From NCBI RefSeq assembly GCF_003334355.1, contig NZ_QOWP01000011.1: DNA of 64,000 nucleotides; one strand, 5' to 3'. This document shows positions 59,901 through 62,900 of this stretch, one piece after another. The stretch's first letter is position 1. Each line of letters begins with the position of its first letter. Position numbers: made by a program. Origin of the DNA: Escherichia coli (GTDB lineage: Bacteria > Pseudomonadota > Gammaproteobacteria > Enterobacterales > Enterobacteriaceae).

Positions 59901-62900
59901 CAACGGGTAATACGCCGCGCGGGCAGAGCTGGCAGCCTTTATCATCACAAGTCATATCTGGCTGGCAGGTAAACTCCTGATGATTCTCTTCATCATCAGT
60001 GTCATACACCCGCAATTCGATATCACGTAGCAGGGTTAAATTCTGTAAGCCGTTGAGTACAGGTGACAGGCGTTCACACAGCGGGGCGCGGGAATGCAAA
60101 CGGCGGTTAGCCTGCCATAAAAAAGAGAGGATCTGATTTTTATGCTCCAGCCCGGCGGTTTTCTCCTGAACCCGCTGCTCAAGTACGGCATAACTTTCGG
60201 CCAGTTCTGCAGACATATTGTTCAATGCAGTTCCAAGCATCGCCATTTCGTTGCGCCCGCTGATGTTCGCGCGTTGGGTAAAATCGCGATGACTGACGGC
60301 ACTCGCCATTGCCAGCAGTTGCCGCCACGGTTGTAGCAGTCGCGCCCGCAACCAGATAATAGTGAACACCAGTAAAAGTGCCATAAATACCGCCATTACC
60401 CGATGGACCAGTACCACTGTCTCAATGCGCATTTCCGTGGTGCGGTCAAAACCAGATACCAGCTGATCAAGCCCGGCAACAAACTGGCTGACATCCGCTG
60501 ACACCGTTTCGCGGTTTTGTGCACGCATCAGTGCAGGGATCAGTTCATTACGCCAGTAATCTTGTAAACCCTGTAATTGCGCCAGTTGTCCGTCTCGTTC
60601 TGCTGCTCGAGTCAACTCGGCGCTAAATGCCGTTTGTTCCATCTCTTTAATTAAGGGCTTGTCTTTCTCGCTTAATGGCACTGCTGCCAACAGACGGTAA
60701 CTTTGCATGCGCAGCGATCCCGCTTTGTTGATCGCATGGGCGCTGCCCTGAACGCCTTGCACCAGCCAGCCAGAAACCGCCATCCCTGCCAGTCCAATAG
60801 CAGTAGAAAGCAACACAATAAGCGCAACCTGATTAACCAGGGTGAGCGGAGAGAGACAACGTTTAAGCATGTAAACCTCTTCCTTCAGGCTTTAAATGAG
60901 CAATAACCTTAATGAATGTGACGATACATTCTGGAATGGCAGTATTCTCGGCTATTGGCTGAAGTATACCCATACCCGGAAAGAGTTACTCCTTATTTGC
61001 CGTGTGGTTAGTCGCTTTACATCGGTAAGGGTAGGGATTTTACAGCACCGTGAAAAATCTCATAATTTTTATGAAATCACTGTACTCACTATGGGTAATG
61101 ATAAATATCAATGATAGATAAAGTTATCTTATCGTTTGATTTACATCAAATTGCCTTTAGCTCCAGACACTAAGGTGGCAGACATCGAAACGAGTATCAG
61201 AGGTGTCTATGAGTCACTCATCCGCCCCCGAAAGGGCTACTGGAGCTGTCATTACAGATTGGCGACCGGAAGATCCTGCGTTCTGGCAACAACGCGGTCA
61301 ACGTATTGCCAGCCGCAACCTGTGGATTTCCGTTCCCTGTCTGCTGCTGGCGTTTTGCGTATGGATGTTGTTCAGCGCTGTTGCGGTGAACTTACCGAAA
61401 GTCGGTTTTAATTTTACGACCGATCAGCTATTTATGTTGACTGCGCTGCCTTCGGTTTCTGGCGCGTTATTACGTGTTCCATACTCCTTTATGGTTCCTA
61501 TCTTCGGTGGTCGTCGCTGGACGGCGTTCAGCACCGGTATTCTGATTATTCCTTGCGTCTGGCTGGGTTTTGCCGTGCAGGATACCTCCACGCCTTATAG
61601 CGTCTTCATCATCATCTCTCTGCTATGCGGCTTTGCTGGCGCGAACTTCGCATCCAGTATGGCAAACATCAGCTTCTTCTTTCCGAAACAGAAGCAGGGT
61701 GGCGCGCTGGGTCTGAATGGTGGTCTGGGAAACATGGGCGTCAGCGTCATGCAGTTGGTTGCTCCGCTGGTGGTATCACTGTCGATTTTCGCAGTATTTG
61801 GTAGCCAGGGCGTCAAACAGCCGGATGGGACTGAGCTGTATCTGGCGAATGCGTCCTGGATATGGGTGCCGTTCCTTGCCATCTTCACCATTGCGGCGTG
61901 GTTTGGCATGAACGATCTTGCTACCTCGAAAGCCTCCATCAAGGAGCAGTTGCCGGTACTCAAACGGGGTCATCTGTGGATTATGAGCCTGCTGTATCTG
62001 GCAACCTTCGGCTCCTTCATCGGCTTCTCCGCGGGCTTTGCAATGCTGTCAAAAACGCAGTTCCCGGATGTTCAGATTCTGCAATACGCTTTCTTCGGGC
62101 CGTTTATTGGTGCGCTGGCGCGTTCTGCAGGTGGTGCATTATCTGACCGTCTGGGCGGAACTCGTGTCACGCTGGTGAACTTTATTCTGATGGCGATTTT
62201 CAGCGGCCTGCTGTTCCTGACCTTACCGACTGACGGGCAGGGCGGAAGCTTCATGGCGTTCTTCGCGGTCTTCCTGGCGCTGTTCCTGACAGCTGGGCTG
62301 GGTAGTGGTTCCACTTTCCAGATGATTTCAGTGATCTTCCGTAAACTGACAATGGATCGCGTGAAAGCAGAAGGGGGTTCTGACGAACGTGCGATGCGTG
62401 AAGCGGCAACCGACACGGCGGCGGCGCTGGGTTTCATCTCTGCGATTGGCGCGATTGGTGGCTTCTTTATCCCGAAAGCGTTTGGTAGCTCGCTGGCATT
62501 AACGGGTTCGCCAGTCGGCGCAATGAAGGTATTTTTGATTTTCTATATCGCCTGCGTAGTGATTACCTGGGCGGTATATGGTCGGCATTCTAAAAAATAA
62601 ACCGTTACTCGTCATACTTCGGGTTACATGTGCTGCGGCTGCGTTCATTCACCCCAGTCACTTACTTTAGTAAGCTCCTGGGATTCATTCACTTGCCGCC
62701 TTCCTGTAAACCGAATTATATAGAGTAAAATATTTGATTATCCTTTGCGCGGCATGATGTCGCGCTTTTTTTATGCGTCATTTAGTTACAACATACTAAT
62801 GTTATATGGTTTATTTCGCCGGATTTCATTAAGAGCCATTAATATGTTACCCATGGGGAATACTCCTTAATACCCATCTGCATAAAAATCTTAATAGTTT

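What the first reader, a model, noticed from the sequence alone, without database searches (positions are those of the whole stretch)
61098..61149. narK promoter has two FNR boxes 38 bp apart
Seen in sequence: a perfect box at 61136-61149 and a one-mismatch box at 61098-61111, with centres 38 bp apart. This fits the tandem -41.5 and -79.5 FNR arrangement (established knowledge for narK) and places the start near 61184 (inference).
Basis: partly seen in the sequence, partly recalled or inferred. Interest (0 to 1): 0.2.

Follow-up and report, generated by a model that had tools for sequence, protein, structure and literature searches.

The report
E. coli narK promoter FNR boxes
This is the well-studied oxygen- and nitrate-controlled promoter of the E. 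coli nitrate transporter gene narK; its promoter-proximal FNR site is universal among enteric bacteria, whereas the second, upstream FNR-like box is a good sequence match found only in E. coli and E. albertii, and whether it has a function is unproven.

Summary
TTGATTTACATCAA (61136-61149) is a perfect FNR consensus and ATGATAAATATCAA (61098-61111) has one mismatch. Their centres are 38 bp apart, in the narX-narK intergenic region of a non-K-12 E. coli.

The proximal box is the known class II site. Myers 2013 places it at -41.5. It is invariant in 46 narX-narK loci from more than 20 genera, at a fixed distance from a conserved -10 (TAAGGT, 61171-61176). That puts the start at about 61184.

The distal box scores 13.5 bits on a ChIP-derived matrix. 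About 0.004 such sites are expected by chance in the 115 bp upstream of the proximal box. It is the same 14-mer as the characterised hlyE FNR/CRP site, which also lies in this window (13772-13785).

Against a core role:
- The distal box exists only in E. coli and E. albertii, and has decayed in a cryptic Escherichia clade.
- No other genus has any FNR-like site there.
- It falls below the Myers prediction threshold.
- It sits 3.6 helical turns from the proximal site, off the class I phase.

The conserved upstream partner is a NarL-heptamer pair at about -94.

Verdict: a known promoter and an ordinary finding. The distal box is at most a lineage-specific accessory site.

The parts
59074..60870 (-). 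narX coding sequence (nitrate sensor kinase), divergent from narK
   Evidence: ORF list; RefSeq annotation of identical E. coli DNA
60967..60973 (+). Perfect NarL heptamer TACCCAT, at about -217 to -211
   Evidence: Consensus scan for TACYYMT; invariant in Escherichia. NarL binding here is inferred, not tested.
60987..60993 (+). Perfect NarL heptamer TACTCCT, at about -197 to -191
   Evidence: Consensus scan; invariant in Escherichia. Inferred.
61049..61072 (.). Block CGTGAAAAATCTCATAATTTTTAT, conserved across genera as CGTGAAAAACCACAnnTTTTTT, at about -135 to -112. The binding factor is unknown; it may be an architectural-protein site.
   Evidence: 27-sequence alignment; IHF ChIP-chip enrichment reported for this intergenic region in Myers Table S6
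61083..61097 (.). NarL-heptamer-like pair: TACTCAC (61083-61089, +) and TACCCAT (61091-61097, - strand; reads ATGGGTA on +). Its centre, 61090, is at about -94 and lies 52.5 bp (5.0 turns) from the proximal FNR centre.
   Evidence: Scan; conserved without gaps in all 27 aligned genera
61098..61111 (.). Distal FNR-like box ATGATAAATATCAA (9 of 10 consensus positions), centre 61104.5, which is -79.5
   Evidence: Matrix score 13.5 bits. Identical to the hlyE FNR/CRP site. Present only in E. coli and E. albertii.
61136..61149 (.). Proximal FNR box TTGATTTACATCAA (perfect consensus), centre 61142.5, which is -41.5. This is the class II activator site.
   Evidence: Myers 2013 Table 1 and Table S6. 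Invariant in 46 narX-narK loci.
61171..61176 (+). -10 hexamer TAAGGT (TAAKGT in most genera). No usable -35 element, as expected for a class II promoter.
   Evidence: Conserved at a fixed 21-bp distance from the proximal box in all 27 aligned sequences; sequence read
61184..61184 (+). Inferred narK transcription start (an A), +/- 1 nt
   Evidence: 41.5 bp downstream of the proximal box centre (Myers Table 1) and 7 nt after the -10. Not mapped here.
61199..61203 (+). Shine-Dalgarno AGAGG
   Evidence: Sequence; invariant in the alignment
61209..62600 (+). narK coding sequence (463 aa, nitrate/nitrite transporter)

Best explanation
This is the FNR- and NarL-dependent promoter of E. coli narK.

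The working core is conserved throughout the Enterobacteriaceae. One FNR dimer binds the perfect box centred at -41.5 and overlaps the missing -35 (class II activation). It acts together with NarL-P bound to heptamers at about -94, on the same helix face (5.0 turns upstream), and at about -195 to -215. A conserved block at about -125 probably binds an architectural protein.

The second box, at -79.5, is a real, moderate-strength FNR-type sequence that arose in the Escherichia lineage. Citrobacter has ATGATAAATTTTAG at the same position, so the left half and spacer are ancestral and the right half ATCAA is derived. It can probably bind FNR, because the identical 14-mer is the functional hlyE site. 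It is not part of the conserved mechanism, and it lies off the helical phase for contact with the RNA polymerase alpha C-terminal domain. Its most likely role is nil or a small modulation of narK output.

Shown here or in cited data: sequence, coordinates, conservation pattern, statistics, the -41.5 assignment, and in vivo FNR occupancy of the region.

Inferred: NarL and architectural-protein binding at the named elements, the exact +1, and occupancy and effect of the distal box.
For: - Locus identity.
- Proximal site: perfect consensus. It has the highest PatSer score listed for this region (17.06) and is placed at -41.5 in Myers 2013. It is perfect in all 46 narX-narK loci from other species. 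Its spacing to a conserved -10 is ungapped.
- In vivo FNR ChIP signal over this intergenic region in three studies: Myers, Grainger and Federowicz.
- narK and NarS expression depend on FNR and NarL in Salmonella.
- Distal site: 13.5 bits. It ties for 4th-5th of about 64,000 positions in the window, beats 13 of the 62 ChIP-bound training sites, and 0.004 such sites are expected locally. The identical 14-mer is the hlyE site, -69 TTTGATATTTATCATA -54.
- Lineage restriction: only E. coli and E. albertii have any site scoring at least 10 bits within 150 bp upstream of the proximal box. Citrobacter retains ATGATAAATTTTAG or ATGATAAATTTCAG. Escherichia sp. MOD1-EC7003 has 3 substitutions in the 14 bp against a 5.6% background, P=0.04.
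- NarL-like pair and the -125 block: conserved and ungapped.
Against: - No site-resolved binding or mutational data for the distal box could be obtained. The key 1992 papers are not in the library.
- The box is invariant in every E. coli strain sampled and in E. albertii. The 51-bp block around it (61083-61133) is more conserved between E. coli and E. albertii than the rest of the spacer (1/51 against 11%, P=0.017). Some constraint, possibly including FNR binding, therefore cannot be excluded.
- The Myers ChIP-seq peak centre lies nearer the distal box, about 27 bp upstream of the listed site position. Peak-to-site offsets scatter with SD 65 bp, so this is uninformative.
- The helical-phase rules are recalled from the literature, not verified here.
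Confidence: 0.75

Rival explanations
1. True tandem-FNR promoter. Both boxes are occupied by FNR in vivo. The upstream dimer measurably tunes narK, either adding activation or damping it at high FNR activity, as upstream-bound FNR does at yfiD. This would be an Escherichia-specific refinement.
For: The distal box is a strong match, statistically unlikely by chance, and identical to a functional FNR site. It is invariant in the sampled E. coli strains and in E. albertii. The yfiD precedent, where upstream FNR suppresses activation, is cited in PMC3445967. Other E. coli promoters have two predicted FNR sites 45-53 bp apart: yfiD, ompW and cydA in Myers Table S6. From memory, curated databases list a -79.5 FNR site for narK.
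Against: It is absent from all other genera and decayed in a cryptic Escherichia clade. It is below the Myers prediction threshold, and narK is scored as having one site. A 38-bp spacing puts the two dimers on nearly opposite helix faces. The box directly abuts a conserved NarL heptamer (61091-61097), so NarL-P and FNR may compete. No accessible experiment tests it.
Confidence: 0.2
2. The distal box is functionally irrelevant to FNR. It is a chance by-product of an AT-rich spacer whose conservation within Escherichia reflects another protein (IHF, Fis, NarL or H-NS), or simply a short divergence time.
For: The left half ATGA(T/C) is conserved across genera as the tail of the NarL-like block GGGTRATGA, and only the right half is new. 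The region is 69% A+T. IHF ChIP-chip enrichment is reported over the region. A review-level statement says Fis acts at narK. At hlyE the same 14-mer is bound by FNR in vivo only when H-NS and StpA are removed.
Against: Even with the local composition, only about 0.004 such sites are expected in the 115 bp upstream. The sequence is competent for FNR at hlyE.
Confidence: 0.25
3. The distal box is an operator for a different promoter. FNR bound there blocks a sigma70-like element upstream (TTTACA-16-CATAAT, 61039-61066, putative +1 at about 61073), or it acts on the divergent narXL promoter.
For: A 10/12 promoter-like match lies just upstream, so the box would sit at about +25 to +38 of it. Its -10 is also Escherichia-specific.
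Against: The number of promoter-like hits equals the chance expectation (1 found, 1.0 expected). MOD1-EC7003 keeps the promoter-like element but has lost the box. No transcript evidence exists. The box is more than 225 bp from the narX start codon.
Confidence: 0.03

Closest known systems
E. coli K-12 narK promoter (narKp), as characterised in the 1990s and in genome-wide FNR studies
   Same: It is the same locus. The intergenic region differs from K-12 at only 2 of 338 positions, and neither is in a box. The FNR site is at -41.5. The promoter depends on FNR and NarL.
   Different: Nothing material. The window comes from a non-K-12 strain and is 100% identical to strain C and others.
nirB promoter FNR site (class II, -41.5)
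   Same: It has the identical 14-mer TTGATTTACATCAA, also at -41.5, and is also co-activated by NarL (Myers Table 1 and Table S6).
   Different: Myers Table 1 and Table S6 list a single FNR site for nirB, with no second FNR-like box. From memory, its NarL/NarP site is a 7-2-7 at -69.5, whereas here the NarL-like pair is 7-1-7 at about -94.
hlyE (clyA) promoter FNR/CRP site, class I at -61.5
   Same: The core 14-mer is identical to the narK distal box (TTGATATTTATCAT is the reverse complement of ATGATAAATATCAA). It is present in the same window at 13772-13785.
   Different: At hlyE it is the sole activator site, at a class I position, and has flanks that also suit CRP (TTTGA/TCATA). At narK it lies at -79.5, upstream of a stronger site, with flanks that suit CRP poorly (AATGA/TCAAT).
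yfiD promoter with tandem FNR sites (-40.5 and -93.5)
   Same: A class II FNR site plus a second FNR site upstream. At yfiD, upstream-bound FNR modulates (suppresses) activation. Two sites 53 bp apart are listed in Myers Table S6.
   Different: At yfiD both sites pass the Myers threshold and are 53 bp (5 turns) apart. At narK the spacing is 38 bp (3.6 turns), the distal site is sub-threshold, and no functional test is available.

Membership tests
FNR DNA-binding site (CRP/FNR-family inverted repeat) | Inverted repeat TTGAT-N4-ATCAA | tested here: met
   Proximal box 10/10, distal box 9/10. Matrix scores 20.2 and 13.5 bits; ChIP-bound training sites range from 11.7 to 20.7.
FNR DNA-binding site (CRP/FNR-family inverted repeat) | FNR occupancy in vivo | tested here: inconclusive
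   Three published ChIP data sets show FNR over this intergenic region. Their resolution cannot separate sites 38 bp apart (offset SD 65 bp). The proximal site is accepted. The distal site is unresolved.
FNR DNA-binding site (CRP/FNR-family inverted repeat) | Conservation of the site in orthologous promoters | tested here: not met
   This row is for the distal box: it is present only in E. coli and E. albertii among 46 narX-narK loci of other species, and it has decayed in Escherichia sp. MOD1-EC7003. For the proximal box the feature is met in 46 of 46 loci.
Class II FNR-dependent promoter | Site centred near -41.5, overlapping a weak or absent -35, with a recognisable -10 | tested here: met
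   Myers Table 1 gives -41.5. The box-to--10 spacing (21 bp) is ungapped in 27 genera. No -35 with legal spacing is present (sequence). The start site itself was not mapped here.
Class I (upstream) FNR activation site | Centre on the activating helix face (-61.5, -71.5, -82.5, -92.5; recalled from the literature) | tested here: not met
   The distal centre is -79.5, which is 38 bp or 3.6 turns from -41.5. That is 3 bp off -82.5 and 8 bp off -71.5 (arithmetic).
Tandem-FNR promoters (yfiD, ndh, cydAB type) | Both sites bound, and the upstream site changes promoter output | not testable with these tools
   This needs mutagenesis or footprinting. The primary narK papers are not held.
NarL-activated promoter | NarL heptamers TACYYMT upstream of the activator site | tested here: met
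   Three perfect heptamers lie in 338 bp, against about 0.3 expected for equal base frequencies. The pair at 61083-61097 is conserved across genera. Binding itself was not tested. NarL dependence is shown in Salmonella.

The most novel reading that the evidence does not exclude
The distal box is a recently evolved, functional FNR site specific to E. coli and E. albertii. It was created by two or three substitutions in an ancestral ATGATAAATTTTAR spacer. It retunes narK, for example by damping expression at full anaerobiosis or by competing with NarL-P at the abutting heptamer. That would be a small, datable case of regulatory-site gain, and of subsequent loss in a cryptic Escherichia clade.
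Probability: 0.2. Interest if true: 0.3.

Novelty: already known. Interest (0 to 1): 0.1.

Why it matters
It matters little for discovery. The narK promoter is a textbook FNR/NarL-dependent promoter, and the finding re-identifies it correctly.

The useful residue is a caution for annotation. Only the -41.5 site, the NarL-like pair at about -94 and the block at about -125 are conserved promoter architecture. The -79.5 box is lineage-specific and untested, so it should not be propagated as an established tandem-FNR arrangement without a mutational test.

It also shows that a 9/10 consensus match identical to a proven site (hlyE) can arise and decay within a single genus.

Tried and rejected
1. 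Retrieving the primary narK promoter papers (Kolesnikow 1992 by PMID, PMC id and DOI) and the tandem-FNR study (Barnard 2003): none is held. Bonnefoy & DeMoss 1992 was seen only as a citation. Full-text searches for '79.5', for the two 14-mers and for citing papers found no statement about a -79.5 site.
2. Using the ChIP-seq peak centre to decide whether one or two sites are occupied. The narK peak lies about 27 bp upstream of the listed site, but across 63 sites the offsets have SD 65 bp, so this was rejected as uninformative.
3. Federowicz 2014 motif tables: the held text of the ArcA and Fnr motif tables appears identical and lists only ArcA-like 15-mers between the boxes, so it is not usable.
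4. Looking for turnover, meaning a distal FNR site at another position in other genera: none scores at least 10 bits within 150 bp.
5. IHF (WATCAANNNNTTR), CRP and NsrR consensus scans of the intergenic region. There is no convincing IHF or NsrR match. The only CRP-like hits are the proximal FNR box itself and the conserved -125 block, each with 2 mismatches.
6. Rfam scan of 60500-63200: no hits.
7. Sigma70 and terminator scan: one promoter-like hit at 61039-61066, no more than chance.
8. Salmonella and E. fergusonii sequences could not be fetched. The single genome-contig scan returned only its best 80 loci.

Full report
**Locus.** Window 60871-61208 is the 338-bp spacer between narX (minus strand, 59074-60870) and narK (plus strand, ATG at 61209, stop at 62600). 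A 381-bp query across it matches 5,416 of 5,426 complete E. coli genomes. It is 100% identical in many of them (strain C and others), where it is annotated narX/narK, with narL upstream and narG downstream. It differs from K-12 at two positions, 61076 and 61163, neither of them in a box.

**Observation.** TTGATTTACATCAA lies at 61136-61149 and is a perfect TTGAT-N4-ATCAA. ATGATAAATATCAA lies at 61098-61111 and has one mismatch, at position 1. Their centres are 38 bp apart.
- Perfect matches are rare: 2 in 64 kb against 0.15 expected. The other one is the narG box at 63011-63024.
- One-mismatch matches are not rare window-wide: 6 found against 3.2 expected.
- I therefore built a symmetric matrix from the 62 ChIP-bound sites of Myers et al. 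2013 Table S6, leaving out narK's own site. The scores are 20.2 bits for the proximal box, 15.1 for narG and 13.5 for the distal box.
- The distal box ties for 4th-5th best of about 64,000 positions in the window. It outscores 13 of the 62 bound training sites.
- Its per-position probability is 1.1e-5, or 3.9e-5 with the local 69% A+T composition. That gives about 0.004 expected in the 115 bp upstream of the proximal box.

**What is published and accessible.**
- Myers et al. 2013 (PMC3688515) Table 1 lists narK with an FNR ChIP-seq peak, FNR-dependent expression, one FNR site, and its top site at -41.5.
- Their Table S6 lists only TTGATTTACATCAA for narX/narK (score 17.06), with IHF ChIP-chip enrichment. 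The distal box is not among their 187 predicted sites. The lowest listed score is 12.18, and the very similar ATGATAAAAATCAA at gadE scores 12.49, so the distal box appears to fall just below the cut.
- Their site count is a relative-score rule, not an occupancy measurement.
- Grainger et al. (PMC1802558) and Federowicz et al. (PMC3974632) also found FNR ChIP signal over this spacer.
- None of these resolves 38 bp. Across 63 sites, the offset between the Myers peak centre and the listed site has SD 65 bp, so the narK offset of -27 is uninformative.
- In Salmonella, narK and its 3'-UTR sRNA NarS require FNR and NarL but not NarP (PMC7038943).
- The primary E. coli narK promoter papers could not be retrieved: Kolesnikow 1992 is not held, and Bonnefoy & DeMoss 1992 was seen only as a citation. 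No held paper mentions a -79.5 site. The claim that a -41.5/-79.5 tandem is established for narK therefore rests on memory of curated databases, where I recall it being based on sequence similarity.

**The same 14-mer is a proven FNR site.** ATGATAAATATCAA also occurs at 13772-13785, in the hlyE-umuD spacer upstream of hlyE. Lithgow et al. (PMC2156107) give the hlyE FNR/CRP site as -69 TTTGATATTTATCATA -54, whose core is the exact reverse complement. It is a class I site at -61.5 (PMC4601167). The distal narK sequence is therefore competent to bind FNR in principle. However, at hlyE FNR binding in vivo was seen only when H-NS and StpA were removed. The narK flanks are also poorer for CRP.

**Comparative test.** One genome-contig scan with NarK returned 80 loci. 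The 46 loci with a divergent narX are narK orthologues; the rest are narU-type paralogues or distant homologues.
- The proximal box is a perfect consensus (17.8-20.4 bits) in all 46 loci. These cover Escherichia, Citrobacter, Enterobacter, Klebsiella, Raoultella, Kluyvera, Kosakonia, Cedecea, Rahnella, Limnobaculum and others.
- In a 27-sequence alignment, the box-to--10 interval is ungapped and the -10 (TAAGGT or TAATGT, 61171-61176) is conserved. This supports class II geometry and a start at 61184 +/- 1. There is no usable -35.
- A distal FNR-type site (at least 10 bits within 150 bp upstream) exists only in the divergent E. coli strain (L004) and in E. albertii (L003).
- Several Citrobacter species carry ATGATAAATTTTAG or ATGATAAATTTCAG at the homologous position. 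The left half and spacer are therefore ancestral, and the right half ATCAA is derived in Escherichia.
- The ancestral left half is the tail of a conserved element, TACTCAY-N-(A/T)NGGGTRATGA. This contains NarL-type heptamers: TACTCAC at 61083-61089 and, on the minus strand, a perfect TACCCAT at 61091-61097.
- The centre of that pair (61090, about -94) lies 52.5 bp, or 5.0 helical turns, from the proximal FNR centre. The distance is ungapped in all aligned genera.
- A second strongly conserved block, CGTGAAAAAYCWCA..TTTTT (61049-61072, about -125), has no assigned factor.
- Two further perfect NarL heptamers lie at 60967-60973 and 60987-60993.

**Within Escherichia.**
- Both boxes are invariant in seven sampled E. 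coli strains of varied background and in E. albertii.
- Zero changes in 14 bp against an 11% background is not significant on its own (P=0.19). The surrounding 51 bp (61083-61133) is unusually conserved between E. coli and E. albertii (1/51, P=0.017).
- In Escherichia sp. MOD1-EC7003, an unclassified Escherichia, the distal box has three substitutions, all at consensus positions, against a 5.6% background (P=0.04). Its score falls to -3 bits, while the proximal box is untouched.

**Mechanism.** The conserved machine has three parts:
- FNR at -41.5, acting by class II activation.
- NarL-P at in-phase heptamers at about -94 and further upstream at about -195 to -215.
- A probable architectural site at about -125.

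The distal box at -79.5 lies 3.6 turns from the proximal site. That is off the helical series at which upstream FNR or CRP contacts the alpha C-terminal domain (recalled knowledge). It also directly abuts a conserved NarL heptamer. I conclude that it is a lineage-specific, moderate-affinity FNR-type sequence with at most a modulatory role.

A real tandem function, by analogy with yfiD where upstream FNR suppresses activation, remains possible. I give it about 0.2.

**Verdict.** It is unproven for a functional tandem arrangement. This is an already known promoter, so interest is low.

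Noticed in passing
window 13772-13785: The identical 14-mer ATGATAAATATCAA lies upstream of hlyE (minus strand) in the hlyE-umuD spacer. 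It is the published hlyE FNR/CRP site (-69 TTTGATATTTATCATA -54), read on the other strand.
   Followed up: yes
window 63011-63024: A perfect FNR consensus TTGATCGTTATCAA lies upstream of narG. This is the known narG class II site, listed in Myers Table S6. NarL heptamers (TACCCAT, TACTCCT, TACCCAT) are visible at about 62849-62878.
   Followed up: partly
window 61049-61072: The block CGTGAAAAATCTCATAATTTTTAT is conserved in more than 20 enterobacterial genera as CGTGAAAAACCACAnnTTTTTT, at about -125 of narK. It gives a weak CRP/FNR-family-like GTGA-N6-TCAC match and no IHF consensus match. Its factor is unknown, although IHF ChIP-chip enrichment is reported for this spacer.
   Followed up: partly
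window 61083-61097: NarL-type heptamers lie in an unusual 7-1-7 inverted arrangement rather than the 7-2-7 that NarP needs (from memory). They are conserved and ungapped across genera, exactly 5.0 turns from the proximal FNR centre. This is consistent with narK being NarL- but not NarP-dependent (PMC7038943).
   Followed up: partly
window 61039-61066: A sigma70-like TTTACA-16-CATAAT (10/12) lies on the plus strand upstream of both boxes. Its -10 is Escherichia-specific. The count is no higher than in shuffled sequence.
   Followed up: partly
window 41063-41076: ATGATTTAAATCAC scores 14.3 bits on the FNR matrix, third best in the window. It overlaps the start codon of a 363-aa ORF on the minus strand (39973-41064).
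   Followed up: no
window 61076 and 61163: The window is not K-12. It differs from a K-12 genome at these two spacer positions (A vs G, C vs A) and is 100% identical to strain C and several clinical isolates.
   Followed up: yes
window 62601-62772: The narK 3' UTR ends in a GC hairpin (62747-62765) plus a T run. This is the region that yields the NarS sRNA in Salmonella and E. coli (PMC7038943). No Rfam family matched.
   Followed up: partly
L002 (Escherichia sp. MOD1-EC7003), homologous to window 61098-61111: The distal box has decayed to ATAATAAATATTCA (three consensus-position substitutions), while the rest of the spacer is 94% identical and the proximal box is intact.
   Followed up: yes
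window 61123-61144 (K-12 U00096.2 coordinates 1277094-1277115): The Federowicz 2014 supplementary motif tables list ArcA-type 15-mers (GTTATCTTATCGTTT, TATCGTTTGATTTAC) between and overlapping the two FNR boxes. The held ArcA and Fnr tables look identical, so the assignment is unclear.
   Followed up: no
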